DNA of 64,000 nt from Candidatus Udaeobacter sp. (GTDB taxonomy: Bacteria; Patescibacteriota; Patescibacteriia; Magasanikbacterales; GWA2-37-8). The notes beneath the pieces were generated by a model. That model ran no database searches and had not been told where the DNA came from. It saw only the letters and a list, made by a program, of their open reading frames with translations. Positions 1 to 57,465 of this stretch are shown piece after piece. The stretch covers positions 41,734 to 105,733 of the forward strand of contig DATION010000007.1 in the NCBI GenBank assembly GCA_035473115.1, written 5' to 3'. Both the position numbers and the translations under genes were made by a program. Each line of letters starts with the position of its first letter. Within the stretch, counting starts at the first letter, position 1.

Positions 1-897
1 GCCACCGTTGGCACCGTCAGCCAAATCGTTGCCATCGGCAATGACCTGTCCGGCGGTAATGCCAAGCTGAAAGTTGACGATGGAATTGACTTCATCCGGA
101 GTCAGGTCTCGGGTCGCTTGAGCGTGTCCACGAGTTGCGTCATTGGCCTGACGCGTCAGCATGCCTTGGATATCAGTCGCAGACGATGGGCCAGCGATAC
201 CCGTTGGATCGGGAGCGCTGGTGTTCGCTCGGAGCTTGTTCTCGCGGCCGTCCCACATGATCGTGCTGTCGAACTTAAGGTTCGCAGTCGGCAGAGGGCG
301 CCGGAATAGTGACAGCTCCGCAGCGCTTGCAAAATGGTAAGGATCATCGACTGCATCGAGAGCGAATTCGGCGCCAGCTGGAATTGGTAGGCCGACGCGA
401 ATCAACCCCTTGGTCAGCAGCATGCTGAAAGCCTTTTTCCTCTTTCCAAGCGTGGAAAGGTCCGCATTTGGCGAGTTTGACCCGTCATTGGTGCGGAAGA
501 TCGCGCAGAATCCGGAAGTGTCCGTGTCGTTGGCCTCGCCGACTCCTCCGTTGCAGAGCTTGAAAAACAGCGTCGTGAACTTTGGAGTGATGGTCCAGCC
601 AGTGAAGGGAGCGTGACAGCTGACACAGCGTCGTCCGTTTGACCCCAGACTCTGAAAGAACAGGTTGCTTGAGTCGATGGAACCAGACGAACTGACCGAA
701 GCAAAAAACCCATTTGGGCTGGTGATCGGTAAGTGATCTCCAACCTGCTGGGCAAAGTTGCTCACGATCGTAACCATCTGATCGGTCTGACCCATCTGGG
801 GCGTATTGCCGCCACCAGCTTGGGTATCACACCCAGATGATCCGAAAAACAGTCCGAGACCAAACAGCCATGCAAGAACATACGATTTTCTCAACAT
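1..897 (-). CDS. Secreted lipoprotein with CxxCH haem-c motif (RCVSCH) and WDGR motif; putative di-haem cytochrome c peroxidase/MauG-like c-type cytochrome. 5' part only; the ORF runs off the window start.
   Basis: Manual minus-strand translation is open from 897 to position 1. It begins MLRKSYVLAWLFGLGLFFGSSGC (signal peptide plus lipobox-like Cys), then CVSCH and IMWDGRE. GC ~57% against ~38% elsewhere. This frame is absent from the ORF track, presumably because it is truncated at the window edge. Confidence 0.45.
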   Translation of the reverse strand, partial: MLRKSYVLAWLFGLGLFFGSSGCDTQAGGGNTPQMGQTDQMVTIVSNFAQQVGDHLPITSPNGFFASVSSSGSIDSSNLFFQSLGSNGRRCVSCHAPFTGWTITPKFTTLFFKLCNGGVGEANDTDTSGFCAIFRTNDGSNSPNADLSTLGKRKKAFSMLLTKGLIRVGLPIPAGAEFALDAVDDPYHFASAAELSLFRRPLPTANLKFDSTIMWDGRENKLRANTSAPDPTGIAGPSSATDIQGMLTRQANDATRGHAQATRDLTPDEVNSIVNFQLGITAGQVIADGNDLADGANGG

Positions 898-1123
898 TCT
901 GTGTATCCTGCCTTCTTTTTACCGCTCTGTACTCCTGGTTTTACTTCTTACTTTTTTCTCTTGAGGATTCAAGAGTGAGAGGATAGTATCATAAAAGCTA
1001 ATATTAAGCAAAGGTAGGGGTGTGGATGAGTTTTTTATGTTTTATTTTATTTTGACCAGCAAATTATAATATGGTACAAAAGATATTCGCGAGAACGTTG
1101 ACAACAATCAGAGAGGATAAGTC

Positions 1124-1990
1124 ATGACCAGATTTCTCAGGCAGTTGGTAATTATTGGAATGGCATTATTGCTTGTTGGTTCGTGCGGTTCGCACCGAAA
1201 CCATCCAATAAATGTGCACAGGCTTTGCGACCATAATTCTGCGACAGCTCAATTGCGTCCGTCAGAAGCAGCGGTATCACCAGAAAATCTGCTTACATAT
1301 CGAGGCGGTCGGTTGCTAACTTCCGTAGTAGTTCAACCTATTTTTTGGGGATCAGTAGCTTGGAGTAGTCCTCAGATTAACACTGTACCAAAAAAGATCG
1401 CCGATTTTTTTGCCGCGATCTTGAAGAAGGGCAGTGTTTTCAATGCACAGTTAGCTGAGTACAGTCTGTCTGGCCGTCCGCAATTTGGTCCCGGCAGTTT
1501 GCTGGCTAGTGTAGTTGTAAATTCAAGCCCGCCCAAGCGAGTTTCTGATGCGGCGATTCGTACTGCACTTGCTGGCTGGATTCGTCAAGGAGTTGTGGCT
1601 GCCACTCGTCAGCAGACTTTCTATGCCATATATTTGCCGCCCGGAACTGTTTCGGTCAATGGCCGAGAGATGTCTTGCCGTGATTACTGTGGTTATCACG
1701 ATTCGTTTGTAAGTAATGGTGTCAGTGTTTTTTACGCTGTACTGCCGTACCCATCTTGCCAGGGCTGTTTGCCAAGAGTTTCTTTTGAGAGGCTGCTTGA
1801 TCCGGCCAGCGCGCTCATGGTAGTCAGTTCGCATGAGCTGGCCGAAGGACAGACAGATCCAATTCCAGGAGAGGGTTGGTATAACGATATCAATGGAGAA
1901 AATGGAGATTATTGCGTTGGCCAGATACGCCAAGAGGGAAACTTCTTCATCCAAAAAGAATGGTCCAACCGGGCCGGCGCCTGTCTTTAA
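1124..1990 (+). CDS. Hypothetical secreted lipoprotein
   Basis: 288-aa ORF with N-terminal signal and lipobox (LLVGSCGS); no catalytic motif recognised; intermediate GC. Confidence 0.5.
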   Translation: MTRFLRQLVIIGMALLLVGSCGSHRNHPINVHRLCDHNSATAQLRPSEAAVSPENLLTYRGGRLLTSVVVQPIFWGSVAWSSPQINTVPKKIADFFAAILKKGSVFNAQLAEYSLSGRPQFGPGSLLASVVVNSSPPKRVSDAAIRTALAGWIRQGVVAATRQQTFYAIYLPPGTVSVNGREMSCRDYCGYHDSFVSNGVSVFYAVLPYPSCQGCLPRVSFERLLDPASALMVVSSHELAEGQTDPIPGEGWYNDINGENGDYCVGQIRQEGNFFIQKEWSNRAGACL

Positions 1991-2051
1991 AAAGGCGCTA
2001 AATAGTTAGGCTAGTCAAGACGAATCTATCATGGCTAGCAATCGCAGTAGA

Positions 2052-10341: not shown

Positions 10342-13300
10342 ATGAAGAAATCTGTTCAATATAATCCAAAAAAAATAGAAAAAAAGTGGCAAAAATATTG
10401 GGAAACCAACAAGACTTTTGAAGTAACTGAAGATAAAACAAAAGATAAGTTTTATTCGCTAATTGAGTTCCCTTACCCAAGCGGCGAAGGCTTGCACGTC
10501 GGTCATCCGCGGCCGTTTACCGCTATGGATGTAGTTTCCCGCAAAAAAAGGATGGAAGGCAAAAATGTTTTGTTTCCAATCGGTTTTGATTCTTTTGGTC
10601 TGCCCACCGAAAATTACGCTATCAAAACCGGACAGCCTCCGGCAAAAGTTACCAAGAAAAATATTGCCAACTTTACCCGTCAGCTAAAAATGCTCGGTTA
10701 TAGTTTTGATTGGTCGCGCGTGGTTGATACTTCTGATCCAAAATATTATAAATGGACCCAGTGGCTGTTTTTGCAATTTTTTAAACATGGCTTGGCTTAC
10801 AAAAAAAATCAACCGATAAATTGGTGTCCAAAAGATAAAATCGGTCTGGCCAACGAAGAAGTGGTAAATGGCTGCTGCGAACGCTGCGGTACGGCTGTGG
10901 AAAAAAGAAATAAAGAGCAATGGATGCTGGCAATCACCAAGTATGCCGATAAACTTTTAGATGGTTTAAATGATGTAGATTACATTGATCGCGCCCGAGT
11001 GCAGCAGGAAAATTGGATCGGCAAAAGCGAAGGAGCGGAAATTGTTTTTCCACTGCGCATGATCCCGGGCCAGTCAGATGACAAACATTCGGTAAAAGTA
11101 TTTACTACCCGGCCGGATACAATTTTTGGCGCAACTTTTATTGCCATTTCTCCGGAGCTGGCCAAAAAATGGCTAGAAGTTGGCTGGCAAACAAATGATA
11201 AAGTAAAAAAATATATTGAAGAAACCATATTGCTGCGCGCTGCCGTAACCGACAGAGAAGAAAAAGCTAAAACTGGAATTGATACGGGTATTAAAGCTGT
11301 AAATCCGGTTAATAACCAAGAGGTTCCGGTTTGGATTACCAATTATGTTTTGGGTGATTTTGGCACGGGCGCAATTATGGGCGTGCCGGCGCATGATGAG
11401 CGTGATGGTGATTTTGCCAAAAAATTTGATTTGCCAATTACGGAAGTAATTCAATTAAAAGAAAACAAAACTAAGCATTTGATTTTTGATTTTGATGGAG
11501 TAATTGGCGACACTTGGGAGGCTGGGATTGAAACCAGAATAAAAATGGGAGATGTAAAAAACAGAGAAGAGGCGATTGAAGCTAATAATTTATATTTTAA
11601 TAGAAAACCGGTTCATACCAAGAATCATAATTTAACCGAAGAAGAAATGAAGGGTCTTCACTTATGGATGCAGAGGTATGGTGAAATTATGGCCAAAACC
11701 ACCTTTCCTTTGTTTGACGCTTTTATTAGCGAAATAAAAAAGATTCCCAATACAAAAATTGCTGTTATTTCTGCTGGTTCCGGACTTTATATGAGAGAGC
11801 GCAGTGCTAACAGTGGACTAAATCCTACTCATGTTCTTTCTTTTGAAGACCATCACTCCAAAGAAGAAAAAATTGAACAGGTCTGCAAAGACTGGGGAGT
11901 AAACATAAAAGATATATATTATTTTACCGATTCCAAAGCTGATGTTTACGAATTGGAAGGCTGTATGGATCAAAAAAAATTAATCGGCTGTGCTTGGGGT
12001 TATTGCGGCTATGATGCCTTACGTGAATTGTTGCCGGAAAATCAAGTTTTAAAGGAAGCCAAAGATATAAGCAAACTTTTTGCTCAGGAAAAATTGGTGG
12101 AAAAAGAAGTTATGGTTAATTCTGATTTCTTAAATGGTTTATCTGTTACCGAAGCCAAAGAAAAAGTTATTTCTTGGCTGAAAGAAAAAAGTTTTGGTAA
12201 GGGCCAAACCCAATACAAACTGCGCGATTGGGTATTTTCTCGTCAGCGTTATTGGGGTGAACCGATTCCATTGGTATTTTGCGAAAATTGTAAAAATAAA
12301 AAACAAAAAGTTCTAATGATCCATGGTTTTGAATCATCGGGCGATAATATTTGGTTTCCGTGGATGAAGAGTGAATTAGAAAAAAATGGCTACGAAGTTT
12401 TTGCGCCGACTGTCAGGAATCCAAATCATGGCAGTGTGAAAGATTGGGTTGCTGACTTGCTTCCTTATATGGAACAGCTTGACGAAAACGATGTTATCAT
12501 CGGACATAGTTTGGGCAGTAAAGCTGCTTTGCACTTGTTAGAAAAAACTGGTAAAAAAATTGGGCATTTATATTTGGTAGCTTCGGCTATCGGTACTATC
12601 CAGAATAGAGATTGGGATGAGCTGCGAGCTAAATGGCCAAAATCTGATATTGATTCTTTGCAAGCTTTTTGGCATGCGCCGGTTGATTATAAGAAAATTT
12701 CCAAATTGGTTAGAAGTATTAATTTAATCCGATCTAGCGACGATAAGAATATTCCTGCTTCTACTCACACAGATTTGCCGCCAGGCTGGCTGGTGCAAAC
12801 CTGGAATGGTTTTGGCCATTTCATGCACTTGGAAATACCGGAATTATTGCGCGAAATTTTAACTAGTAAAAATACCGGCTGGATTCCTTTGCCTGAAAGT
12901 GAATTGCCGCTTAAATTGCCAAAAGTAGAAAAGTATCAGCCGACCGATAATGGTGAATCGCCTTTGGCTGCCATGGAAAAGTGGGTTAATACCAAATGTC
13001 CGCAATGCGGTGGTTCGGCCAAACGAGAAACTGATACAATGCCAAATTGGGCCGGATCAAGCTGGTATTCTTTGCGTTACGCCGATCCGCACAACGACCA
13101 AGAATTTGCTTCTCAAGAAAAATTAAATTACTGGGCTCCGGTAGATTGGTACAATGGTGGAATGGAACATGTGGTTTTACATCTTTTGTATTCTCGTTTT
13201 TGGAATATATTTTTGCATGATATCGGACTAGTGCCGCATTCCGAACCGTATGCCAAACGCACCGCCCATGGAATGATCCTGGCCAAAGGCGGAGAAAAAA

Positions 13301-13962
13301 TGTCTAAATCCAAAGGCAATGTTATCAATCCGGACGATATGGTTGAGCAGTTTGGCGCGGATGCACTTCGGACTTATATTATGTTTATGGGTCCGTTTGA
13401 TCAGGCCGTTGAGTGGGATATCAATGGTTTGATTGGTGTAAAACGGTTTTTGGATAAGGTTTGGAATTTGCAAAGTAAGATCGCCAAAGAAAACGAAAAA
13501 AGTTCAACTGTCAGTTTGATTGCCAAGGCGACCAAAAAAGTAACTGATTGTATTGATATGATGAAATTCAATACAGCTGTGTCAGCTTTAATGGAGCTTA
13601 GCAATGAACTTTATAAGGAAGAAAAGATTGATCTGTATGCTTATCAAAATTTTATCAAACTTCTATCTCCATTTGCGCCTCATTTGGCTCAAGAGCTTTG
13701 GGAAAAATTTGGTGATAAAAATGAATTGGTGTTTTCTTCTTGGCCTAAATATCATGAGGAAGATCTTAAAGAAGAGACTCTAACTCTGGCAGTACAAATA
13801 AATGGCAAACTACGTGATACTATTTTGGTAAGCGCAGAAATTTCCGAAGACGAAGCTAAAAAAATAGCTCTGGCCAGTGAAAAAGTCCAAAAATGGCTGG
13901 AAGGCAAAGAGCCAAAAAAAGTAATTTATGTAAAAGGAAAGTTAGTTAGCATCGTTGTTTAG
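10342..13962 (+). CDS. leuS: Leucyl-tRNA synthetase carrying two inserted domains: a HAD-like hydrolase and a YdeN/RBBP9-type alpha/beta serine hydrolase
   Basis: HIGH (HVGHPRP) and KMSKS motifs, the CP1 editing motif VPAHDERD and the return to the catalytic core (RLRDW..RQRYWGEPIP). A HAD fold (FDFDGVIGDT motif I, VISAGS, FTDSKAD) sits between ITEVIQ and NSDFLNGL. A GHSLG serine hydrolase sits between the FCENC and KCPQCGG zinc-knuckle halves. Confidence 0.85.
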   Translation: MKKSVQYNPKKIEKKWQKYWETNKTFEVTEDKTKDKFYSLIEFPYPSGEGLHVGHPRPFTAMDVVSRKKRMEGKNVLFPIGFDSFGLPTENYAIKTGQPPAKVTKKNIANFTRQLKMLGYSFDWSRVVDTSDPKYYKWTQWLFLQFFKHGLAYKKNQPINWCPKDKIGLANEEVVNGCCERCGTAVEKRNKEQWMLAITKYADKLLDGLNDVDYIDRARVQQENWIGKSEGAEIVFPLRMIPGQSDDKHSVKVFTTRPDTIFGATFIAISPELAKKWLEVGWQTNDKVKKYIEETILLRAAVTDREEKAKTGIDTGIKAVNPVNNQEVPVWITNYVLGDFGTGAIMGVPAHDERDGDFAKKFDLPITEVIQLKENKTKHLIFDFDGVIGDTWEAGIETRIKMGDVKNREEAIEANNLYFNRKPVHTKNHNLTEEEMKGLHLWMQRYGEIMAKTTFPLFDAFISEIKKIPNTKIAVISAGSGLYMRERSANSGLNPTHVLSFEDHHSKEEKIEQVCKDWGVNIKDIYYFTDSKADVYELEGCMDQKKLIGCAWGYCGYDALRELLPENQVLKEAKDISKLFAQEKLVEKEVMVNSDFLNGLSVTEAKEKVISWLKEKSFGKGQTQYKLRDWVFSRQRYWGEPIPLVFCENCKNKKQKVLMIHGFESSGDNIWFPWMKSELEKNGYEVFAPTVRNPNHGSVKDWVADLLPYMEQLDENDVIIGHSLGSKAALHLLEKTGKKIGHLYLVASAIGTIQNRDWDELRAKWPKSDIDSLQAFWHAPVDYKKISKLVRSINLIRSSDDKNIPASTHTDLPPGWLVQTWNGFGHFMHLEIPELLREILTSKNTGWIPLPESELPLKLPKVEKYQPTDNGESPLAAMEKWVNTKCPQCGGSAKRETDTMPNWAGSSWYSLRYADPHNDQEFASQEKLNYWAPVDWYNGGMEHVVLHLLYSRFWNIFLHDIGLVPHSEPYAKRTAHGMILAKGGEKMSKSKGNVINPDDMVEQFGADALRTYIMFMGPFDQAVEWDINGLIGVKRFLDKVWNLQSKIAKENEKSSTVSLIAKATKKVTDCIDMMKFNTAVSALMELSNELYKEEKIDLYAYQNFIKLLSPFAPHLAQELWEKFGDKNELVFSSWPKYHEEDLKEETLTLAVQINGKLRDTILVSAEISEDEAKKIALASEKVQKWLEGKEPKKVIYVKGKLVSIVV

Positions 13963-22123: not shown

Positions 22124-24084
<1,961 letters not shown>

Positions 24085-24117
24085 AAAGAAAGTTATAAAT
24101 TTATTTAGAATTTTTTA

Positions 24118-24150
24118 GGGCGCCTCTCGCGAATGCGGGGCGCCCTTTTG
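24118..24150 (+). terminator. Rho-independent terminator after groEL
   Basis: gggcgcc...ggcgccc stem followed by ttttg. Confidence 0.6.
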
Positions 24151-24194
24151 GTTGGATCTCCTTGGAAATATAGTGCCGTCGTCAGCCACTTGGT

Positions 24195-24341
24195 TTAGAG
24201 TGGCTTTCCTTCGATAACGAAGGCGCGGATGACCTCTCTGAGGTCCAGCATTTTTTCCCTGAGATCGTCAATCAGATTGATCACGGCGATGAGTAGCTTG
24301 CCGACGATGTCGTCGATCTTTTTTCCTAGATCCAGGTCCAT
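24195..24341 (-). CDS. Small 48-aa ORF in a GC-rich patch (hypothetical)
   Basis: ATG preceded by GGAGGA inside the perfect palindrome cctcctagaggaggag; peptide MDLDLGKKIDDIVGKLLIAVINLIDDLREKMLDLREVIRAFVIEGKPL; not in the track (<60 aa). Confidence 0.3.
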   Translation of the reverse strand: MDLDLGKKIDDIVGKLLIAVINLIDDLREKMLDLREVIRAFVIEGKPL

Positions 24342-24480
24342 ATATCCTCCTAGAGGAGGAGATTACTATAATAATTAAATTTTGTCAAAGGTTATTAAGG
24401 TAAGAAGTCTTTTGTTTGTCAAACAGATAATTATGGTGTAAAATTGTATTAAATAATCAACGTTCAATCATACTTACAAT

Positions 24481-24972
24481 ATGGCCGATATAATTCTTAA
24501 TTTTTTCTCTTCATTTCCGCCGGCGCTGGCAACTCTTTTTATTTCCATGCTGCCAATTGTGGAAAGATTTGCTGTGCCGGTAGCTATCGTCGGCTATCAT
24601 TTACCGGTTTGGGAAGTTTTGCTTTTGGTAATTTCCGGCAATATGGTGCCAATTATTATAATTCTTACTTTTGCCGGCAAATTTCATGATTGGGTCTCCA
24701 AAAACTCTCATCATTTTTTTGCCAAAGCCTGGATAAAAACTTTGGCTCATGCCCAGAAAAAATTTGCCCGCTATGAAAAATATGAACTTATTGGCCTAAT
24801 GATTTTTATGAGTATTCCTTTGCCGATTAATGGCGGTTTTACCGGCGCTTTGATTGCGTTTATTTTAGGTTTGCGTTTGGGCAAGGCTTGGCCATATCTG
24901 TTTGGCGGAGTGGTTATCGCCGCCTGTATTACAGTCGGTATTATTGCCGGTTTAGATAAAATCTTCTTCTAA
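24481..24972 (+). CDS. Small polytopic membrane protein (COG2426-like putative small multidrug export protein)
   Basis: 163 aa with 4 predicted TM helices. Confidence 0.4.
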   Translation: MADIILNFFSSFPPALATLFISMLPIVERFAVPVAIVGYHLPVWEVLLLVISGNMVPIIIILTFAGKFHDWVSKNSHHFFAKAWIKTLAHAQKKFARYEKYELIGLMIFMSIPLPINGGFTGALIAFILGLRLGKAWPYLFGGVVIAACITVGIIAGLDKIFF

Positions 24973-29314: not shown

Positions 29315-32300
29315 ATGCAAAAATTTAATAAATTTGCCCTTAAAATTTTATTGCTCATATTTACTTTTGTAACTATAGCCGGTTCTTTGTCTTTTGTTCA
29401 GCCAGCCCAAGCAATTCCAGTAGAAGTAGTTGCCGACGCGCCTAGTACTATGGATAAAGTACTAGATCAGATCGCGTTATTTTTAAAAACCGCTACGGTA
29501 AATATAGCTGTGCAGTCCTTCGCTTATTTTATGCGCCGGGTATCTTATGATTCAGCGGTTTGGTTAGCTTCCGGCGGCAAAGGTGAAACTCCATTTGCCC
29601 ATACCAAAACTTTTGGCAATTATATTTCCGATGTAGCTGACAATGCTGCCGGAGTAGCTATAGAACAATTAGGTAAACCTTATGGTTTAAATTTATGTAA
29701 AATTCCTGACCCAAAAATTGATTTAGCTATGCGTATTGGGTTGAACTATCAGTTTTTAAGTCAAACAGTAGTTAAGCCGACTTGTACCTGGCAAAGCTTT
29801 CAAAAAGATGTTTTAAATGCCGATAATTGGAAGAGCCAGTTTGGCAGCGTTGATGACGTCGCCAAAAAATTTAATGTTGCTTTTTCTGTAGACCAAAGCG
29901 ATATTGGTATTTTGTTAAGTGCCACAGAAAAAATTGATAATATAGTAGCCCAACAGACAACTGCCGAAACACTGCAAAGACAGGAAGGTCAAGGTGTCAA
30001 AGATAAGAAGACTTTGATTTCTGATAATATTTCTACAAACGGTAACTTGATCGCTCATGATATACAATCCTTAACCCCTTCTGAGCAGCAAAAAAAAGCT
30101 GAACAAGGTTTTTGGTCCACAGTTGGTACAGGACTAACGGGGGCAATCAGTGGAGCTGGTTCGTTGTTTTTAAATACTCTGCTTAATAAAATGGTGGAGA
30201 ATTACAGAAATAAAGGAATGTTTCCTTTTGGGGCTTGTATTGGCGACAGCGGAGATCCTAGCTGCAAAGGAGTACAAAATAATCTTCTTAATGCCGAAGG
30301 CCAAATAAGCCAAGGTGGGCGCCAGGGCGCGCAAGCGTTATTCGCCGATTTTCTTACTCCGCCTAATGTTCAAATTGATCGCTATGATATTTTGGGTAGT
30401 TTTTCCAGTTGTCCGCCAACCTCTCCTGGTCCGGAAAATTGTGTGGTTGATAGCGGTTTGGCTCAAGCGGCTCAGGAAACTAGTGTTGGCAAGCCAATTA
30501 CTATCGCTGACGCGTTGGCCAAAAATTGGCTCCATGGCGAATGGAAGTTACTTTCTCCGGAACGCAGCGCTGATCAAACAGATGTAAATTGTTACCAGCG
30601 AGCTTATTGTTATGCCAATATTGCCAAGCTGCGTAAATCTAGAATTTTGCCTTTAGGTTTTGAAATTGCCGCTTTAAACAGCAATCCGGATACTCCTTGG
30701 ACTTTAAAACAAGTTGTTGACGGCTTTAATGATTGTAATTTCATCAAAGATGCTAATGGTAATGTGGTAGGCGTAGATAATGATCCAATTAATAAACCAT
30801 TTTGCCATCTGATTGATCCAAACTGGGTAGTAAAAGCTCCGGCTTTGAAATGTAACTTTTTAGCGTTTGGCGCCACGCCATTTTTTAGAGGCACACCCAA
30901 TCGCGCTCAAGAATGCGCTGATCTCAGTACCTGTGTAGCTTATGATAAAAATGGCAATTGTTCTAACCAAGGTTATTGTACTCGCGAACGCAATGTTTGG
31001 AAGATAGATGCTGCTAAATGCGATTCTCAATTTCGTACCTGTCAATCTTTCCAAGACAGCACCGGTAAAGATGTCAGTTATCTTTATCGTACGCTTGATA
31101 CTGCTTATTGTAATCAAGACAATGTCGGTTGCGCGGAGTATAGTCTGAAACAAGATAACAATGGCAGCTGGACTAATTATGCAAAAAATGATTTAAATAG
31201 CGCTGGTGAAAATTCAGCTATATATTTGAATAATAAAATTTCCACCAATTGTTCTGCTAACTCTGATGGCTGCGCGTCTTTTCAGGTAGCCAGCACTTCG
31301 GATAAACTTTATTTACGTCAGGCTCCATATTATTTACAGTGTTATGACACAAACCCAAGTACGCTGGCAATAGACTGGCCTCAAACAAACTCTGATCTGG
31401 CCAAATTACCGACCAAATCAGCTTGCAATAATTTTTCTCAAGCCTGTATTCCGGATGAAGTAAATTGTAATAGTTACAACCCAGTCAGTTATGTGGGAAC
31501 TGCGATTCCTGGCAAGTTTACGCCAGCTACAGTTGTAGAGAATCAGATAGTTTGGAATGATCAATGTGATAAAAGATGTGTTGGTTATTCAGCTTATCGA
31601 GAAATACCAAGTAATTATTCTGATGGTCAGGCAGTCAGTTATATTATTCCTTCTTCCGGTTCAAAATGCAGCGCCATTGATGAAGGCTGTACAAGCTTTA
31701 CCAATCTTAGTGCCACAGTTGGCGGTTTAGAAAAAGTAGAACACTTTTCTTATTTGCGACCTTGTATTTTGCCAGATACGACCAAGCAGAAAAACTTTTA
31801 TACTTACGAAGGTTCGGCTGTCGGCGGATATCAGTTAAAAGGTTTTGTCTTAGAAAAAAATTCTGACGGCAGCCCTAAATATTTTTATCGAACTAACGAA
31901 GATTTAGTTGGCTATGATTCAGTTTGCAGTGAGTCTTTGTATAAGCAAGGTTTGGCTAGTCCGGATTGCCGCCAATTTAATGACGATAAAGGTGCGGTAT
32001 ATTATAAATTATTATCAAAAACTATTGCTGTTTCTCAGTCTTGTACGCCGTATCGCTTAAATGACACTGAACTTCGTCCGGTAAATTTATCACAGGCTGA
32101 TTGTCTGACACAAAAAGGAAACTGGGATAGTGCCGCTGGCAAATGCAGCGTCTGTTTCCAAAACGGCGAATATCGCGACGGACAATGTTTTTATTCCGGT
32201 CTGCCTGGTGATGTGCAAAATACCGCCGGCATCAGTAAAACTTGCGCTGCGGAAGTAAACAGCTGTCGAGCCTACAAAGGCAATGCGGGCAATAATGTCA

Positions 32301-35300
32301 AAAATATTTTTAATAATAATTTTGAAGAAACCCCGGCAGCTATGGCTCTAAAAGATTGGGGACCGGCAGCCAATATCTCTGTATCTTTAGAATCTACTCA
32401 TGCGGGCGAACATTCTTTGTCTTATAACGGCACAGCCGCGGTCTATAAAAATCTATCTTTAACTCCAAGCAAAAGTTATGACATAACTTTTTGGGCTAAA
32501 GGCAGCGTTGGAGCTAAGGCGACTGTTATTTTGCAAAATGACAGTGTTGTCACTTTGGGTGACGCTAGCGTAGGTGACGTTTGGCAATTTTATCACTTTG
32601 GTCCGGTAGAACTGGGCGGAACAGCTACCAGCACTCAGCTTAAGTTTTCGATCAACGGACAGTTGTTTATAGATAATGTTAGCCTAAAAGAAGTTACTGA
32701 TTATACTTATTTAGTTAAAAATACCTTAAAAGTTAATCCGGTTTGTGACAGCAATTTAGATGATAATTTACCGGGCGAAGCGCTGGGTTGTTCGGCTTAC
32801 AAAACTCCGGATGACAAACCAGCTTACTTAACTAAGTTTACTTCTCTTTGCCGAGAAAAAGCTATCGGTTGTACAGCTCTATACGATACGCGTAAAACTC
32901 CGGATGAACCTGGTCCGCGCGCTTATAATGTTTGGTTCTCCGGAGAAGGCGGTACTAGTGTTGCCAAAACTATTGGCGGTCAAAATTATAGTTGCCAAGT
33001 TCCGGTCGGCCAAATTGGCTGTTACGTTAATACAGTTGGCGCTACTTTAAGTACAATTACTGCTGCTGGCGGAGAGGTTGTTACTTCCACAATTTATGTT
33101 CAGCCAGACACACCTTTATCATCACCGATATATTTGGTTGCCAATCAAGAAGCTACTTGTAACGCAGTTGATTTAGGCTGTGTATCTGCTGGCAGATTGG
33201 TACAGACTCCAACCGGAGCAACTTATGAAAATATTCTTATAAAAAATGATCCGGCTTTGTACGATACTACCCTTTGTCAGAAAGAAGCGGTTGGCTGTAA
33301 TACTTACACCTCGGCCAATGGCGCTTTGTACTTTAAAGATCCAGCTACTATCGGACAAAAAATTTGCGCTTACAGAGAAAATGTTTTCCTTAACGGCTCA
33401 AATTATAGCGGCTGGTTCTGGAAAAATGTTGGCAAATGTTCAGCGAGCGGTAATTTATGTACGACCGATAAAGATTGTGGCAGCAGCGGCGGCACTTGCG
33501 CTGGTTTAGACGAGCAACCATGTTATCCAAATTATCTACAGACGGGTAATAATTATGGCCTGTGGTCGTACGGTGTAACCAGTTCATATAATAATTTTGT
33601 AGGTGAATGTCCTTCAACACAAAGCGGCTGTACCGAATTTATTGATCATAATGATAATAATAAAGTCTATGATTTAATTAATGATGATCGAATGAAAGCA
33701 TTGCAAAGCGGCTGCAATGGACAGATTAGTGAAAAATCTGGCTGTATCTTGTTTGATAAAACAGATTTGCCAAATAAATTATGGAATACTGCCCAGTCCT
33801 ACGCCAATAGCGTCAAATTAAATAATAGTCTAGTTGGGCCGGTGGCCAGCAATTCCGGAGATCCTAATGATGCTAATATAATTTTGAAAGTAGATCGGGA
33901 CAGAGAATGCGGTGAATGGCTGCAATGTCGATCATCACATCGCGTATTTGATTCTCAAACCGGAAATTATAAAGAAATCTGTGATGCTATTGGCAGGTGT
34001 AATAAGAGTCCGGAATCAGCCGAAAAAGGCGATATTACCAACTGTGCCAACTGGGTCAGTTCGCAAGAATTAGTTAATCAGGTTTTAACCGACGATGCTT
34101 ATCGTAACCGAAACACGGATTGGACCGGTCAAGAGTTTAGTGGTTACAGTATTTTGAATTATTATCCAGTAGAAGAACTATCAGAAGTAAATTTTGGTGG
34201 TAATTCCGCGACCGATCAACAGTGGAGGTTGGCAAAAAAAGTTCCATGCGGCGGCGGATCTAACTGTGCTTCCAGTGTTTTCACCGAAGATTTTGCTTGT
34301 AACACGACCGGCTTAGCTTGCGGACGAGGCAATGCTGGAATTTGCCAAAACCATATTTGTTTGTCTAACCCTAATGGAACTACTGCCGATGTTACTCATC
34401 AATCGATCGGTCAATCTTGCCGCGCCTATCCGGAAGAAACTTCTCCATTCCCTAATTCCGAACCAATTGGCAACTCCTCAGTATATGGATCTGTAAATTT
34501 ATGCAATGAAACTGCCGGTTTTATTACCGACAAAACCAAAGCGGCGGCTTGTGATTGTAATTACACCAAGATTAATTATGGTGATAGCTTTACCAAGTAT
34601 TGGGATTTTAATAACCCAAATAGCAATGGTATTCTGAAACCGGATGGAACTTTGGCCAAAGGAATAGTTAGTGGTATCTGTTCCGGCGGAGTTAGCGCCG
34701 GACTAGTATGCGGTACAGACAGTGATTGTACTGGCGGCAGCTGTCAGAAATTAGGCAAGCAGGCTCGCCTGATCGGCTGGCACGGCTATTGTATTGAGCC
34801 GGATATTTCTAGGCCGTTAAATGCGGAACCGAATAATTTTGCTTGTTTAACCTGGTTCCCGGTTGATACTATTATGGGCTCTCCGGACATTAATAGTCAG
34901 CACGTAGAAGCTGGTTTCCAGGCATCAAGCGCTGGTGGAAAATATTATTGTTTGGACGCGCAAGGAAATCAGCAATTTGACTCCGCCGCTCAGCAAAATA
35001 ATTATGATAAACTTTTAGGTACAAAAACTATTGCTCGTCCCGGTAGTGTAAATAACAGCTGTACTGATACTAGTGGCCCTTGCTCAAGTTGTGTTAGCAA
35101 TGGCTGTTTTACCAATCCTTTTACCAGAGAAAAAAGAGTCATCGGTAATCTTTCCTCACAAAATATTTTCTTAGATGGTATTGATTATATTAAGATAGTC
35201 ACTAAGAGTGGAGATAATAACTGGTTGGGCAACAGAACTTTTTATATTAGAAATGGTTTAAAAACAAAATATAATGGCCCGCAGTGGAGTGTGGTCGGCA

Positions 35301-37009: not shown

Positions 37010-37023
37010 AAATAACTAAATAA

Positions 37024-37052
37024 AAAATCTCGCTAGTATTGGCGAGATTTTT
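37024..37052. terminator. Bidirectional rho-independent terminator after the giant gene
   Basis: aatctcgc-tagtattg-gcgagatt perfect hairpin flanked by A- and T-runs. Confidence 0.7.
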
Positions 37053-37162
37053 TATTCTACTCAATAGAAGATTTTCTTCTGCTAAGTGGATGTGTGCGCT
37101 ACTGATTTCTCAGCAGCGCACGGGTTGATGGTGGAGGGTGGATGTGGAAGGAACGAGGGGGT

Positions 37163-37660
37163 CTAGTTGGCATTTTGGAAGCAGGTGAGAGTCGTATCTT
37201 GACTCACCACCATCACCAGTTTGTTGACGAGATTATCGTCACTCCTGGTGATTGTCACCTGACTCATCTCCTTGGCTCCGCTACCGGCGATGCTCAAAGA
37301 GCAAATGCCGTTGTTAGACGACGTCAACGTGACATCGTAGTTCCCGCTCCAGTTGGAGCAGGTCCATTGTCTCGTCATCATCCAGCTGTAGCTGGCACAT
37401 GGATTGGCTTGGGGTGCATCAGGTGCACCGGCGTCGGGGGGCGTCATCGCTGAGCCCGATCCGGAGCCGGTCATCACGCTGCCATTGCCGTCGTCGTCAT
37501 CGCCGCTGGTCGTGCTGTCGGTAGCACAGCCGCTGCTGAATGCCATGGCACAGATGCCGAGGATCAGCACTCCGATCGAGACCACACGTGCCCATGTGTA
37601 GTAGTTGTGGATCTCTTCGGTGGTCTGGTTGCTCGTGCTGTAACCGTTCGGGTTCTTCAT
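37163..37660 (-). CDS. Hypothetical lipoprotein in a GC-rich patch
   Basis: Strong SD GGAGGA 4 nt before the ATG (MKNPNG...); TM/signal then AFSSGC lipobox; Asp/Gly/Ser-rich; ~55% GC. Confidence 0.5.
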   Translation of the reverse strand: MKNPNGYSTSNQTTEEIHNYYTWARVVSIGVLILGICAMAFSSGCATDSTTSGDDDDGNGSVMTGSGSGSAMTPPDAGAPDAPQANPCASYSWMMTRQWTCSNWSGNYDVTLTSSNNGICSLSIAGSGAKEMSQVTITRSDDNLVNKLVMVVSQDTTLTCFQNAN

Positions 37661-37715
37661 CGTATCCTCCTGAGTTTGTGTGCCGGTTGGCACGTTGGTT
37701 GCTATGTCGTTGGTA

Positions 37716-37857
37716 TTCGAGCTTGAATCTAATTAGCACTTTTGCTAAGCAAACTTAAGCTCGAATATCTTGTTTTTTCCACCATCTTATTGGCTAATCT
37801 TAGAGAAATCTCTAATCTTAGCACTTTTGTAAAGAGCGGTTGTCAGTAACTGACAAC
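37716..37857. promoter_or_regulatory. Divergent control region with operator-like palindromes between the lipoprotein gene and the T4SS-like cluster
   Basis: ~52-bp near-perfect palindrome centred on TTAGCAnnnnTGCTAA (37733-37748), a second ttagcacttttg copy at 37818, and the perfect 19-bp palindrome gttgtcagtaactgacaac (37839-37857). Confidence 0.4.
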
Positions 37858-41000: not shown

Positions 41001-41293
41001 AAATTATTACTAACTTATTATCGCCGCTTACTTCTACCAGATTAGATAGTGTCGACGAATACGTCAGAAGCGGTTTGGCTGGAATATTAAAAAATTCAAC
41101 TGATAAAGCATTGGCAGAGTTAAAAAATAGTCTAAGTCAGCAAGGAGTTGCCAGAGATAAGGGAGCTTTGGCTACCTTGCTAAGCGATGCTTTGCGTAAG
41201 GCAGGGGATGATATTAAAAAAGAAAACAAAGAATTGATAGAAAATTGGATTAAAGAATTCGGTCCAAGCGTAAAAGCCAAAAAAACAAAATAA
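38051..41293 (+). CDS. VirB6/TrbL-like polytopic membrane protein with a ~700-aa coiled-coil/Lys-Glu-rich C-terminal extension
   Basis: ~7 TM helices in the first ~330 aa (the Gram-positive T4SS VirB6-like pattern), then a long hydrophilic tail. Confidence 0.6.
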   Translation: MLVILNKLNSYFSKFWLLLKPRRRLGLVSFVILTSLLLVVWFVSTSTAQAGVIDGIRDLFTSLIFLVAGLFIKLTFFLLKFVIEIAGYNSFIDSSAVIVGWVMVRDITNMFFVVILLLISFGTILGLEQYEYKKLLVKLLIAAIVVNFSRIICGIIIDIAQVVMITFVNGIAATAGGNLVSMFGVDKIFKLTGSAQGIAQQGSTFLAAVAAIGFSSIMMMTMLTFLFLLLARMVALWILIVLSPFAFVLNVLPQTQKYAGQWWDEFGGNVVAGPIVAFFLWLAFVTVGNGRINNEISAGSSQPLTQEGAENSPETSTGITDIMSWAQMANFAIAIGMLLTGAKVAQQLGAAGGSLMSKAGDFGKRVAMVASGLTAARWAGGKALAAGKATGKFALMKAPLIGGEAWQRRGRRIRAEASGRYYDWVGKRTIKAGKIAKQLAVNEKGKYIIKGTAENSTPELDKNGKPILDEHGEIKYKDIKQSGPMDWFRRMKARAQLAVGPGFSTYNDEYLTDMETTVKYKKERLEHMVSTSSLRVGLEKRKAEEMLHGYEETGKEIKSGRTARMQARRQEINEIIENGVDVDSKLRKKGLNSNEIFEAKEFYQRTRKAESGKATAKVTSEETNAIKNLKEAEVLEGYMASKGAAQESRTAALKAETKQIDDKLNAEREIKELEAIRELIREGGFGHEKQKDITASKAMLEQITFDINQDKDLALAIARDQYLKAQYRDSEALNEQNVLAKQAKERIEKQSVGTDYPRSKARVASLLNQKNDAFAELEAAKLAGDSDKIKIATKKFEQSEKSLSEMQIGNWEQHGSIGAGNMAEVVSKIDPELLKGVSIDPADTKSVRKVQAAIFTSLTGDKVDASGAGVNAAVEKFNKMHGARSQAMLEQLRLALDKAAGQGVFSVAGVLQTELGSDGRISTKVADVDNADEKIRDRVVSYIKSRREAARSAAKITTISAGLDGTVDINSEGKAVVESPESIKIITNLLSPLTSTRLDSVDEYVRSGLAGILKNSTDKALAELKNSLSQQGVARDKGALATLLSDALRKAGDDIKKENKELIENWIKEFGPSVKAKKTK

Positions 41294-56087: not shown

Positions 56088-56260
56088 ACTTGCAGTTGCT
56101 AATATTTTTAAATTTATATTGCTAACTTAAAATTATTATAAGATAAAATTGTTATTTTGTACAGTTAGTTAAAAGTCTTTATAAAAATTTTAAGCCCGTC
56201 AACCAGTGTTTGGTTGCGGGCTTGATGGCCGGCTAAAGCTCCTTATATTTCTGGGTGTGG

Positions 56261-56760
56261 TTAGAGTTTTTGTCGCAGTGCTTGGAGTATTTTCTCTCCC
56301 TTTGCGACCGTAAACTCGGCTTGGGCACACAGCCTGCTGCCAAACATATTACAGCTAAGTGTGCCAAGTCTGGCGGCAAGTCTGGGCTTCAGCCATAGCG
56401 CGAATCCTCGCGGGGCTTTATCCGTCTTTTGTCCACCCCTACCTTTGCCTTTTTCTTCGATCTCTTCGAGAGATCGGATCAGCCGCAGAATGCTGGCGCG
56501 CATCTTTTCTGCGTCTAAAACTGATAGACCGTTGATGTGTGCAGTCCGAGCTGCTGAGCTGGGGTTTTCGTCCCAAAACCCAATTGTGCAAAGCTCAGCC
56601 CAGATCATTTCTCCCAGGGCTGCCCGCAAAGCTCCACGCTCGGCGCGGTCTTTAAACCAGTCAGCCTGTTTGGTTTTTTACCACTTCGGGTCTTTTTTGC
56701 CTTTGGTTTCACGAACGCTCCTTTAGCCGGTTTAATGGGAAACTACCATAATTTAATTAA
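56261..56760 (-). pseudogene. GC-rich frameshifted gene fragment of unknown family
   Basis: Two overlapping minus-strand frames (VKPKAKKTRSGKKPNRL... and ...ADWFKDRAERGALRAALGEMIW...) meet at a poly-A tract; ~55% GC. Confidence 0.4.
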
Positions 56761-56773
56761 TAAGTCAACCCTA

Positions 56774-56802: not shown

Positions 56803-56877
56803 TATTCAGCTATCTTGGGATTCTCCAAGAAGCGCGGCAGGTTGTAGCAACACGATAAGTAACAAGGAGAGTTCCAG

Positions 56878-57465
56878 ATGCGTATCATCGTTTCCATCGT
56901 CATTATTGTCGCATGCTTCGGCTTCGCCTCTGCTGTCCAGGCCGACGTGAAGTCCAATGGCCAGCTCCTCGTTGTCCATGGCGAGCACTTTGGTGATGAT
57001 AATTTCGGTGGATATCTCCACCTTGCAGGTATGGCTTCGACAGGCGGAAACTTGTCTATGCCAATCTATATTGGCGGGGAATACCGCGCCAAAGGAGTAA
57101 ACTTCAAGCTGCTCACCGGGCTTTCTCTATCAGGGAATGGTGGAACATCTGTCATTGCCAGTACCTGGTTTTACGATGAGCTGAGCTCAGATATCAGTTT
57201 GTTTGTCCAAGGAGACGTTTATTTGCCAACCAAACCTGCTGGCAATCACGTTTCACTTTACACTTATGCTAGTTTGTCCAAAGTGAGAGCAGGTTCTGAT
57301 TCAGGCTTTGGTCTGATTTACGAGAATTTTTTCTTTGGACGGGATTGGGTGAAGGCTGCTGTCGGACCAACAGTGATTCTCAGCAACAAGAATTCTCTCT
57401 GGGTTGCCTACGACTTCCAGCCTGATGGATACAACCTGCTTGTCAGGTGGGTAGTCAAGCTCTGA
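56878..57465 (+). CDS. Secreted beta-rich protein (outer-membrane-protein-like) in a GC-rich patch
   Basis: Signal peptide ending AVQA; alternating hydrophobic pattern; ~50% GC. Confidence 0.45.
   Translation: MRIIVSIVIIVACFGFASAVQADVKSNGQLLVVHGEHFGDDNFGGYLHLAGMASTGGNLSMPIYIGGEYRAKGVNFKLLTGLSLSGNGGTSVIASTWFYDELSSDISLFVQGDVYLPTKPAGNHVSLYTYASLSKVRAGSDSGFGLIYENFFFGRDWVKAAVGPTVILSNKNSLWVAYDFQPDGYNLLVRWVVKL

What the first reader, a model, noticed from the sequence alone, without database searches (positions are those of the whole stretch)
1..2000. GC-rich segments encoding signal-peptide/lipoproteins, including a CxxCH haem protein, in an otherwise low-GC genome
Regions 1-~2000, 37040-37760 and 56230-57540 (plus a small patch at 24150-24350) run ~50-58% GC against ~38% background. 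Each encodes exported proteins: a CCP/MauG-like CxxCH lipoprotein with a WDGR motif, a lipoprotein with a similar (F/A)(F/S)SSGC lipobox, a frameshifted gene and an OMP-like beta protein. c-type cytochromes and OMP-like proteins are unexpected in a fermentative CPR-like cell, pointing to horizontal acquisition from a high-GC Gram-negative donor or to chimeric assembly.
Basis: partly seen in the sequence, partly recalled or inferred. Interest (0 to 1): 0.55.

Follow-up and report, generated by a model that had tools for sequence, protein, structure and literature searches.

The report
Foreign haem-protein gene fixed in CPR bacterium
A tiny, low-GC "candidate phyla radiation" bacterium carries a few GC-rich genes for surface proteins, including a two-haem MauG-like cytochrome that was most likely taken from high-GC soil bacteria long ago and kept; the GC-rich patches are real biology and not an assembly error.

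Summary
The composition claim is confirmed. The window averages 40% GC. Genes at 1-897, 37163-37663 and 56878-57465 have GC3 of 0.61, 0.74 and 0.52, against 0.34 +/- 0.04 for 41 other genes.

By GroEL the host is a Magasanikbacteria-like CPR bacterium, although NCBI labels the MAG Ca. Udaeobacter.

Gene 1-897 (-) is the 5' part of a 513-aa lipoprotein with two CxxCH motifs, WDGR, and a Tyr at the MauG Tyr294 position. It is a MauG/MbnH-type di-haem protein. Its nearest outside relatives (52-57% identity) lie in 69-72% GC genomes, where they are compositionally native.

All three islands sit at the same loci in a second, independently assembled relative whose flanking genes are 72-90% identical. 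This excludes chimeric assembly and dates the acquisitions to about or before the split. The two CPR copies of the haem protein are sisters (185/200 bootstraps) and about 70% ameliorated.

Of the other genes:
- B (1124-1990) is a zincin-fold lipoprotein.
- E folds as a 12-stranded outer-membrane-type barrel.
- D is frameshifted in an A6 run.
- C, D and E belong to tiny families with no visible Gram-negative donor.

Verdict: old horizontal transfer is well supported for the haem protein, plausible for B, and open for C, D and E. Whether haem can be attached is untested.

The parts
1..897 (-). First 299 codons of a 513-aa di-haem MauG/MbnH-type c-type cytochrome lipoprotein. The full protein is P0001 (NCBI HSR89577.1), and the remaining 214 codons lie left of the window. 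GC 0.555, GC3 0.609.
   Evidence: Translation. 100% match to P0001. Full sequence with CVSCH-91, WDGR-215, CTTCH-394, PYFHNG-473 and Y490. Pfam CCP_MauG scores 30.1 bits against a cutoff of 25.6 on the full protein. Y490 aligns with MauG Tyr294.
898..1123 (.). AT-rich divergent intergenic region between the haem-protein gene and gene B, with host-like composition and promoter-like hexamers (TTGACC-N17-TACAAA read by eye).
   Evidence: Sequence. The GC drop is visible. The promoter reading is by eye only and was not tested.
1124..1990 (+). Gene B: a 288-aa lipoprotein (LLLVGSC) with a zincin/metzincin-like fold and an invariant SHELAExxTDP motif. GC 0.486, GC3 0.422.
24195..24341 (-). 48-aa ORF with AGGAGG 5 nt upstream and GC3 0.67. 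It accounts for the small GC patch after groEL. It has no signal peptide.
   Evidence: No Pfam or Rfam match.
37163..37663 (-). Gene C: a 166-aa lipoprotein (AMAFSSGC) with a four-Cys C-terminal domain. GC 0.567, GC3 0.743. It is convergent with the 2564-aa Cys-rich protein gene.
   Evidence: The family has 3 members, all at the same locus in CPR contigs L011 and L012.
37714..37767 (.). Imperfect 25-nt inverted repeat upstream of gene C, with a TTAGCA...TGCTAA palindrome repeated at 37818. Possible operator.
   Evidence: Function not tested.
56261..56712 (-). Gene D: a 151-aa basic cytoplasmic protein of unknown function, starting at SD + GTG. It is interrupted by a 1-nt frameshift in the A6 run (T6 on the + strand, 56674-56679).
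   Evidence: Intact 150-154-aa homologues P0265 (61% identity), P0271 and P0275. No Pfam, PHROG, NCBIfam or PDB match.
56878..57465 (+). Gene E: a 195-aa secreted protein (signal peptide ...ASAVQA/D) predicted to form a 12-stranded outer-membrane-type beta-barrel with a beta-signal-like C-terminus (LLVRWVVKL). GC 0.485, GC3 0.515.

Best explanation
Coordinates 1-2000 hold a divergently transcribed pair of lipoprotein genes in a Magasanikbacteria-like (CPR/Patescibacteria) genome.

The first gene (1-897, minus strand, continuing left of the window) encodes a 513-aa di-haem c-type cytochrome of the CCP/MauG superfamily. Its second haem has the His/Tyr ligation of MauG and MbnH. The gene entered this CPR lineage by horizontal transfer from a high-GC soil diderm (Myxococcota- or Burkholderiales-like relatives), at about or before the split from a sister lineage. 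It was fixed at a site near mgtE. Its 4-fold sites have since moved about 70% of the way from donor-like GC (0.96-1.0) to host-like values in both descendants, while every catalytic motif has been kept.

Inferred mechanism (not shown):
1. The protein is exported by Sec and lipid-anchored on the outer face of the cell membrane.
2. It receives two covalently bound haems.
3. It reacts with H2O2 at the five-coordinate haem.
4. It passes oxidising equivalents through Trp215 to the His/Tyr haem.
5. It thereby removes peroxide or oxidises a protein or small substrate outside the cell. This would be useful for a non-respiring CPR cell living in oxic soil or groundwater.

The neighbouring gene B encodes a zincin-fold, probably metal-dependent, hydrolase-like lipoprotein. 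Its non-CPR homologues lack a signal peptide. It is probably also foreign but older, since its synonymous sites are already host-like.

The other GC-rich patches (C; D and E; the 48-aa ORF) are separate small genes. C, D and E are likewise conserved in place in the sister genome. They are best read as further acquisitions of similar age from GC-richer sources that are not represented in the databases. E is an outer-membrane-type porin-like barrel.
For: Host identity: GroEL is 88-93% identical to Magasanikbacteria/Parcubacteria GroELs, and the window carries IF-2, NusA, LeuRS, RF, YidC and SufBCDS.

Family: two CxxCH motifs, WDGR, FKGPxLR and PYFHNG are all 98-100% conserved in 100 homologues and intact in both CPR copies. 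Pfam CCP_MauG is above its cutoff. The best PDB hits are MbnH-like 6e1c, MauG and di-haem CCPs. Y490 aligns with MauG residue 294, where CCPs have Met.

Foreign origin: there are 4351 homologues. The three outside homologues examined lie in 69-72% GC DNA, with gene GC equal to flank GC. The CPR copies are GC islands: 0.555 against a window-wide gene average of 0.395, and 0.496 against flanking DNA at 0.359.

Single old event: the arrangement haem-protein gene / B / mgtE is the same in L001, where MgtE is 79% identical. P0001 and P0002 are sisters in 185 of 200 NJ bootstraps. 4-fold GC is 0.96-1.0 in the outside homologues, 0.57-0.60 in the window and 0.47-0.51 in the relative, against host values of about 0.41 and 0.28. 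That is about 70% amelioration in both genomes.

Not an artefact: all three islands are syntenic in contigs L001, L010 and L011, which come from another run.

B: fold and motif. Homologues lie in 57-58% GC genomes and lack signal peptides.

E: orthologues are sisters in 197 of 200 bootstraps. Barrel fold.
Against: No cytochrome c maturation gene (Ccm, CcsBA/ResBC, CcdA) and no haem synthesis or uptake gene was seen in the 64-kb window or in the three relative contigs. Holo-protein formation is therefore unproven.

The two CPR copies show no residual synonymous similarity (0.256 observed against 0.252 expected, n = 82). Housekeeping pairs still do (0.42-0.50 against 0.32-0.35). The relative's copy is closer in protein sequence to outside homologues (67-69%) than to the window copy (60%). 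Two separate imports of related genes into the same site are therefore not strictly excluded.

B orthology is unresolved (85 of 200 bootstraps).

For C the amelioration arithmetic does not fit. Its 4-fold GC is 0.74 in the window, although the gene sits at the same locus in a much more distant CPR contig.

No donor is visible for C, D or E.

The NJ trees are simple distance trees. No reads or coverage were available.
Confidence: 0.68

Rival explanations
1. Chimeric assembly or contamination: high-GC fragments from another organism in the sample (for example the Verrucomicrobiota the MAG is named after) were joined to a CPR contig.
For: NCBI labels the MAG Candidatus Udaeobacter sp. although the window is CPR, so binning of this assembly is unreliable. 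The first island touches the window edge.
Against: The internal islands are single genes flanked on both sides by low-GC CPR genes, with their own Shine-Dalgarno sites and terminators. All three islands recur at the same junctions in a different genome from another run, where flanking proteins are 72-90% identical and island proteins 35-60%. In L001 low-GC CPR genes continue beyond the haem-protein gene.
Confidence: 0.02
2. The GC-rich genes, at least C, D, E and the 48-aa ORF, are native and lineage-restricted CPR genes. Their GC-rich codon usage is actively maintained, by selection on mRNA or synonymous sites or by repeated replacement at fixed loci. On this view it is not a fading trace of transfer.
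For: C has only three known members, each beside the giant Cys-rich protein gene in CPR contigs that span 61-74% identity of that protein. Its GC is 0.567, 0.568 and 0.569 in the three. E orthologues are sisters (197/200), and the lower-GC genome has the higher E GC3 (0.606 against 0.515). The only named E relative is from a Patescibacteria MAG. 4-fold GC of C in the window (0.74) is too high for a gene that old.
Against: For the haem protein, ordinary amelioration fits the numbers. GroEL and IF-2, which are expected to be highly expressed, have ordinary GC3 of 0.33-0.35, so translational selection is unlikely to be the cause. The D homologue in the relative is already host-like (GC3 0.36). 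The L012 background is itself GC-richer (4-fold GC 0.63), so C is hardly an island there. Site counts are small (28-100).
Confidence: 0.2
3. The di-haem gene is a decaying or non-functional passenger. The CPR cell cannot attach haem, and the gene persists only by chance.
For: No maturation or haem genes were found in the sequence available. CPR bacteria are generally described as lacking respiration (PMC12577380). The neighbouring island gene D is frameshifted. The window copy sits on a long branch.
Against: The ORF is intact in both genomes, although they share only about 58-60% protein identity and their synonymous sites are saturated. All haem-binding and family-invariant residues are kept. 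Lipoprotein signals are retained in both. Only 64 kb plus about 32 kb of two genomes were examined, so absence of maturation genes is not shown.
Confidence: 0.12

Closest known systems
MauG (Paracoccus denitrificans, PDB 3L4M) and MbnH-type di-haem enzymes (PDB 6E1C; NCBIfam TIGR04039)
   Same: Two c-type haem motifs. A conserved Trp in WDGR between the haem domains. A C-terminal FKxPxLRN...PY(F/M)H(N/D)G block. A Tyr at the position of MauG Tyr294, the axial ligand of the six-coordinate haem according to published MauG work. The protein is extracytoplasmic.
   Different: The protein is 513 aa rather than about 355-390, and its first haem domain is much larger (residues 79-229 cover only Pfam model positions 10-81). 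It is a lipoprotein. It scores 37-48 bits against equivalog cutoffs of 363-444. No MADH (mauA/B) or MbnP partner gene lies nearby. The host is a CPR bacterium.
Bacterial di-haem cytochrome c peroxidases (e.g. PDB 3O5C, 1IQC, 3HQ6)
   Same: Same superfamily (Pfam PF03150 above its cutoff). Same order of motifs. Similar C-terminal domain (E = 5e-6 to 1e-4).
   Different: The axial Met of the electron-transfer haem is replaced by Tyr. Only the C-terminal roughly 70 residues align confidently. There is a lipid anchor.
BthA-like 477-aa 'di-haem cytochrome c peroxidase family protein' (PDB 6NX0/6V59; the name BthA is from memory)
   Same: A long-form (about 480-510 aa) member of the same superfamily. 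It is matched in the same C-terminal block (E = 7e-4).
   Different: The match is weak and partial. No test of overall architecture was made.
KdgM/NanC family of 12-stranded outer-membrane porins, and PcoB (for gene E)
   Different: 7-10% sequence identity. No Pfam hit. The last residue is Leu, not Phe. The host lineage is regarded as monoderm (bioRxiv 10.1101/2021.05.31.446380). No BamA was seen in the sequence available.
Metzincin / archaemetzincin zinc peptidases (for gene B)
   Different: The motif is HELAExxTD rather than HExxHxxGxxH/D. Identity is 7-11%. One homologue carries a Pfam Phi_1 annotation. Activity is unknown.
Horizontally acquired oxygen-related genes in soil and groundwater CPR (e.g. 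cytochrome o oxidase in Saccharibacteria and Parcubacteria MAGs; PMC12577380)
   Same: A CPR genome carries an imported gene tied to oxygen or peroxide chemistry.
   Different: Here the gene is a c-type di-haem MauG-like lipoprotein. The literature searches I ran found no mention of such a protein for CPR.

Membership tests
Di-haem CCP/MauG superfamily (Pfam PF03150) | Score at or above the Pfam gathering cutoff | tested here: met
   The full protein P0001 scores 30.1 bits against a cutoff of 25.6. The 299-aa part inside the window scores only 21.3.
Di-haem CCP/MauG superfamily (Pfam PF03150) | Two CxxCH c-type haem-binding motifs, one in each domain | tested here: met
   CVSCH at residue 91 and CTTCH at residue 394. 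Both are 99-100% conserved in 100 homologues and present in both CPR copies.
Di-haem CCP/MauG superfamily (Pfam PF03150) | Conserved Trp between the haems (the WDGR block) | tested here: met
   WDGR at 215-218 is invariant in 100 homologues. It pairs with the FWDGR of PDB 3O5C in a low-scoring HMMER segment.
MauG/MbnH subtype (His/Tyr six-coordinate haem) | Tyr at the MauG Tyr294 position, where peroxidases have Met | tested here: met
   P0001 ...VVDFY490 aligns with MauG ...AILFY294 and MbnH-like ...VIDIY. Nitrosomonas CCP has ...VET-M there. Tyr is present in 98 of 100 homologues. The ligand role itself is taken from published MauG work.
MauG (TIGR03791) / MbnH (TIGR04039) equivalogs | NCBIfam equivalog score cutoff | tested here: not met
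   37.0 bits against 443.85, and 48.4 bits against 362.85. Only about 35-55 C-terminal residues match. The protein is therefore neither MauG nor MbnH proper.
MauG/MbnH systems | Adjacent substrate-protein gene (mauA/mauB or mbnP) | tested here: not met
   The neighbours are a zincin-fold lipoprotein and mgtE. Outside homologues show no conserved partner.
Functional c-type cytochrome | A haem attachment system (Ccm or CcsBA/ResBC) and a haem supply in the same genome | tested here: inconclusive
   None was found by Pfam in the 64-kb window or in contigs L001, L010 and L011. The rest of both genomes could not be retrieved.
Horizontally acquired gene (genomic islet) | Composition and codon usage atypical for the host | tested here: met
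   GC3 is +7 SD (haem protein), +11 SD (C) and +4.6 SD (E). Tetranucleotide z is up to 6.1. B is only +2 SD.
Horizontally acquired gene (genomic islet) | Phylogenetic incongruence: nearest relatives lie outside the host lineage | tested here: met
   Met for the haem protein: 52-57% identity (67-69% for the relative's copy) to genes native to 69-72% GC genomes, with named hits in Kofleriaceae and Burkholderiales. Met for B: relatives lie in 57-58% GC genomes. Not met for C, and probably not for E.
Horizontally acquired gene (genomic islet) | Mobility signatures (integrase, tRNA target, flanking repeats), or presence/absence among close relatives | tested here: not met
   No tRNA. No flanking direct or inverted repeats of note. 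The islands are present at the same sites in the one relative available.
KdgM/NanC-type outer-membrane porin (gene E) | 12-stranded transmembrane beta-barrel fold | tested here: met
KdgM/NanC-type outer-membrane porin (gene E) | Sequence membership in the family, and an outer membrane with BAM in the host | tested here: not met
   No Pfam, NCBIfam or PHROG match. Identity to the porins is 7-10%. No Omp85/BamA gene in the sequence available. CPR are treated as monoderm in the literature (10.1101/2021.05.31.446380).
Metzincin zinc peptidases (gene B) | HExxHxxGxxH/D zinc-binding motif | tested here: not met
   The family-invariant motif is S-H-E-L-x-E-x-x-T-D-P. Glu replaces the second His. Only the fold is shared.

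The most novel reading that the evidence does not exclude
The GC-rich islets mark a conserved set of cell-surface and host-interaction genes of a Magasanikbacteria clade. The cell is monoderm and non-respiring. On this reading it displays a haem-loaded MauG-like oxidase, using scavenged haem, and exports an outer-membrane-type 12-stranded porin (E). Lacking an outer membrane of its own, the cell would insert that porin into the outer membrane of its diderm host to draw off nutrients. For genes such as C, the GC-rich codon usage is actively maintained and is not a relic of transfer.
Probability: 0.1. Interest if true: 0.8.

Novelty: new member of a known kind. Interest (0 to 1): 0.42.

Why it matters
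CPR bacteria are usually described as fermentative, non-respiring cells with a single membrane and no haem proteins. A c-type, MauG-like di-haem lipoprotein that has been kept intact in two diverged Magasanikbacteria genomes implies one of two things. Either these cells can obtain and covalently attach haem, which is testable by looking for CcsBA or Ccm in the complete genomes, or the protein has a haem-independent role.

It would also add a concrete peroxide- or oxidant-handling function to the recent picture of CPR adapting to oxic soil and groundwater.

The outer-membrane-type barrel (E) in the same genomes bears on the open question of what the CPR cell envelope is and how these cells tap their hosts.

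On method, the case shows that single-gene GC islands in a MAG need not be binning errors. One syntenic relative is enough to separate old transfer from chimeric assembly.

Tried and rejected
1. Structured RNA as the cause of the GC-rich patches. There were no Rfam matches at gathering threshold in the whole window, no tRNA or tmRNA, and only sub-threshold chance hits at 56050-56900 and 24050-24500. Rejected.

2. Fetching the source contig or its left flank. Exact look-ups of B, P0001 and MgtE found nothing. A 50-mer scan of GTDB genomes found nothing.

3. Finding more relatives through MgtE.
- The genome-contig scan returned only a 28%-identical Rhizobium gene.
- The metagenome scan returned one Hainich groundwater contig (L009, MgtE 81% identical) that is cut at the gene start, so it says nothing about the haem-protein site.

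4. A shared two-gene cassette in donors. B homologues are not next to haem-protein homologues outside CPR, and the reverse also holds. Rejected.

5. A mobile-element origin.
- No PHROG hits.
- No flanking repeats.
- Only 26-30% identical megaplasmid homologues.

6. Function of C and D. Pfam, NCBIfam, PHROGs and a PDB sequence search found nothing.

7. A Foldseek search of the AlphaFold database, to get organism names for E-like proteins. The library was not available.

8. Literature on c-type cytochromes, peroxidases or beta-barrels in CPR. Nothing directly relevant was found beyond general statements.

9. A first Biopython bootstrap run timed out. I replaced it with a numpy NJ implementation.

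10. I first read the high GC3 of all island genes in both relatives as needing selection. For the haem protein, the comparison with donor-like homologues (4-fold GC 0.96-1.0) showed that plain amelioration suffices. I therefore keep that idea only for C, and weakly for E.
Full report

Yes. The window averages 40.0% GC, and 300-bp windows have an SD of 4.9 points. Runs at or above 48% lie at 1-~950 (peak 60%), 1300-2050 (~50%), 37050-37800 (peak 61%), 56150-56750 (peak 56%) and, more weakly, 56800-57650 (~50%). The patch after groEL reaches only 50-53%.

At gene level, 41 ordinary genes have GC3 = 0.343 +/- 0.037. The genes in the patches compare as follows:

| Gene | GC3 |
|---|---|
| Haem protein (1-897) | 0.609 |
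| C | 0.743 |
| E | 0.515 |
| D | about 0.51-0.60 |
| 48-aa ORF | 0.67 |
| B | 0.422 |

B is therefore GC-rich mostly through its amino-acid content.

Tetranucleotide distance singles out 1-800 (z = 5.6-5.9) and 37001-37800 (z = 5.1-6.1), and more weakly 56801-57600 (z = 3.1). None of the patches is a structured RNA.

**2. What organism is this?**

The window carries IF-2, a 1206-aa LeuRS with inserted domains, ComEC, NusA, GroEL, RF, YidC, KsgA, SufBCDS, a VirB4/TraG-like ATPase and a 2564-aa Cys-rich secreted protein.

Its GroEL is 88-93% identical to GroELs named Parcubacteria group bacterium Gr01-1014_13 and Candidatus Magasanikbacteria.

NCBI labels the MAG Candidatus Udaeobacter sp., a verrucomicrobium. 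That label must be a binning or labelling error.

**3. The gene at 1-897**

The minus strand encodes MLRKSYVLAWLFGLGLFFGSSGC... and runs off the left edge. The full 513-aa protein is on record as P0001 (HSR89577.1), on a 108,916-bp contig.

Its features:
- A lipoprotein-type signal.
- CVSCH at residue 91, WDGR at 215, CTTCH at 394, FKGPMLRN at 460 and PYFHNG at 473. All are 98-100% conserved in an alignment of 100 homologues.
- The full protein passes the Pfam CCP_MauG cutoff (30.1 against 25.6 bits).
- The best solved relatives are the MbnH-like di-haem enzyme 6E1C, MauG, and di-haem peroxidases.

In the C-terminal block, Tyr490 aligns with residue 294 of MauG. According to published MauG work (my knowledge, not a tool result), that residue is the Tyr ligand of the six-coordinate haem. 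Peroxidases have Met there.

The protein does not reach the NCBIfam equivalog cutoffs for MauG or MbnH, and no MADH or MbnP partner gene lies nearby. I therefore file it as a new long-form, lipid-anchored member of the MauG/MbnH-like branch of the superfamily. It is neither MauG nor MbnH itself.

**4. Where did it come from?**

The search found 4351 homologues. Apart from one, the best share about 46-58% identity over the window-encoded part. Most are from soil metagenomes, and the few that carry names are from Kofleriaceae or Burkholderiales.

Three of them on long contigs lie in 69-72% GC DNA, where gene GC equals flank GC. They sit next to Ser/Thr kinases and CHAT proteins. Many are lipoproteins too.

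The exception is P0002 (55% identity over the window part, 58% over the full length). It lies on a 20.9-kb, 36-37% GC contig (L001) from run SRR22808056. There the order is haem-protein gene, a B homologue, a 105-aa ORF and mgtE, with MgtE 79% identical to the window's.

In a distance tree of 100 homologues, the two CPR proteins are sisters in 185 of 200 bootstraps.

Four-fold-site GC is 0.96-1.0 in the high-GC homologues, 0.57-0.60 in the window copy and 0.47-0.51 in the relative's copy. Host values are about 0.41 and 0.28. Both copies have therefore moved roughly 70% of the way to host composition.

Housekeeping orthologues of the two genomes still show a small synonymous signal: identity at conserved 4-fold sites is 0.42-0.50 against 0.32-0.35 expected. 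Crude two-state arithmetic puts the amelioration of the haem-protein gene in the same time range as the split of the two hosts. That estimate is rough and is my inference.

The simplest history is one import from a high-GC diderm at about or before the split, followed by ordinary amelioration.

Two caveats apply. The two copies share no residual synonymous similarity (0.256 against 0.252 expected, n = 82). And the relative's copy is closer in protein sequence to outside homologues (67-69%) than to the window copy (60%). Faster evolution of the window copy explains this, but two imports of related genes are not strictly excluded.

**5. Artefact?**

No. Besides L001, contig L011 from the same run has the giant-protein 3' end (72-74% identical), two GC-rich lipoprotein genes, one of them the C homologue (GC3 0.70), and the 1080-aa membrane protein gene (87% identical).

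Contig L010 has VIT (89% identical), MGMT (90%), a 155-aa lipoprotein gene, an intact D homologue, and an E homologue with GC3 0.61.

The same junctions in a different genome cannot be the same mis-join.

**6. Gene B (1124-1990)**

B is a 288-aa lipoprotein. It has only 22 detectable homologues, one of them annotated with Pfam Phi_1.

The closest non-CPR homologues (42-45% identical) lie in 57-58% GC genomes with TonB receptors and PD40 kinases. They are not next to a haem protein, and they lack a signal peptide.

Orthology of the two CPR copies rests on synteny, because the tree is unresolved (85 of 200 bootstraps).

I read B as a metal-dependent hydrolase-like surface protein. It is probably an older import that gained a lipoprotein signal in the CPR lineage. 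Its function is inferred from fold only.

**7. The other patches**

C (37163-37663, -) is a 166-aa lipoprotein with four conserved Cys.
- In 1.84 billion representative proteins it has two relatives.
- Both lie directly downstream of the giant Cys-rich protein gene of CPR contigs (L011 and L012).
- Its GC is 0.567, 0.568 and 0.569 in the three genomes.
- L012's background is itself GC-richer (4-fold GC 0.63), so C is an island only in the two low-GC genomes.
- A gene that old should be fully ameliorated. At a 4-fold GC of 0.74 in the window it is not, and I cannot explain this.

D (56261-56712, -) starts at an SD + GTG and needs one extra A in the run at 56674-56679 to give a 151-aa ORF that matches its 150-154-aa relatives. 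It has no signal peptide and no known domain.

E (56878-57465, +) has about 18 representative relatives. The only named one is from a Patescibacteria MAG.
- The window and L010 copies are sisters in 197 of 200 bootstraps.
- The family ends in a beta-signal-like strand (...LSLNF...VCYNL...WVVKL).
- CPR are treated as monoderm in the literature (bioRxiv 10.1101/2021.05.31.446380), so this is unexpected.

The D-E pair is divergently transcribed in both genomes. Its position relative to the neighbouring lipoprotein gene differs between them.

**8. How it most likely works**

Shown:
- An intact ORF in two diverged genomes.
- A lipoprotein signal.
- Two haem motifs and all family-invariant residues.
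- Tyr at the MauG ligand position.

Inferred:
1. Export and lipid anchoring on the outer face of the membrane.
2. Covalent attachment of two haems.
3. Reaction with H2O2 and hole transfer through Trp215.
4. Removal of peroxide, or oxidation of an extracellular or partner substrate.

Recent work reports many oxygen-related genes in groundwater CPR, including Magasanikbacteria-rich communities (PMC12577380). That makes such a role plausible.

The weak point is haem attachment. No maturation or haem genes were seen in the roughly 96 kb of the two genomes available to me. This says little about genomes of perhaps 1 Mb.

**9. Novelty and score**

Horizontal transfer into CPR and partial amelioration are both ordinary. 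The di-haem protein is a new member of a known superfamily in an unusual host.

Three points would interest a specialist:
- a conserved c-type MauG-like lipoprotein in a CPR lineage;
- an outer-membrane-type barrel family in the same lineage;
- the unexplained GC-richness of gene C.

All evidence is computational and comes from two or three genomes. Interest: 0.42.

Noticed in passing
whole window (GroEL 22444-24084): NCBI names the source MAG 'Candidatus Udaeobacter sp.' (Verrucomicrobiota). GroEL is 88-93% identical to Magasanikbacteria/Parcubacteria GroELs and the gene content is CPR-like. The contig is mis-binned or the MAG is mislabelled.
   Followed up: partly
window 10342-13962 (+): The leucyl-tRNA synthetase is 1206 aa. 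It has two inserted domains: a HAD-like hydrolase (about aa 380-535) and a Ser-hydrolase / alpha-beta-hydrolase (about aa 657-818).
   Followed up: no
window 55420-55809 (-): A 129-aa cupredoxin gene with a signal anchor lies between the VIT and MGMT genes. In the relative (L010) those two genes are adjacent with nothing between them. The cupredoxin gene has host-like GC (0.36), so it is a gain or loss not marked by composition.
   Followed up: partly
window 24195-24341 (-): A 48-aa ORF with a perfect AGGAGG 5 nt upstream and GC3 0.67 accounts for the small GC patch after groEL. It has no signal peptide and no family match.
   Followed up: partly
window 37714-37767 and 37818-37834: An imperfect 25-nt inverted repeat and two TTAGCA...(T)GCTAA-type palindromes 85 nt apart lie upstream of gene C. 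They look like operator sites.
   Followed up: no
window 56674-56679: Gene D is split by a 1-nt frameshift in an A6 homopolymer. Adding one A restores a 151-aa ORF like its intact relatives. It could be a sequencing error, a true pseudogene or slippage.
   Followed up: partly
window 57671-60517 (-): A 948-aa secreted protein with an apiosidase-like glycoside hydrolase domain, fn3 repeats and a collagen-binding-like domain is convergent with gene E. E's predicted fold matches oligogalacturonate porins. The adjacency is not conserved in the relative.
   Followed up: partly
window 29315-37009, 38051-41293, 44457-46325: A 2564-aa Cys-rich secreted protein and a 1080-aa membrane protein are followed by a VirB4/TraG-like ATPase. 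This looks like a CPR-type surface or secretion gene cluster, and the GC-rich gene C sits in the middle of it in three genomes.
   Followed up: partly
L011 1508-1999 (+): The relative has a second GC-rich lipoprotein gene (163 aa, lipobox FICNSGC, GC3 0.55) beside its C homologue. The window has no counterpart, so gene content at this site turns over.
   Followed up: no
L002 6001-7697 and 9321-11012: A 72% GC genome carries two paralogues of the di-haem family 2 kb apart. One of them is split into two ORFs.
   Followed up: no
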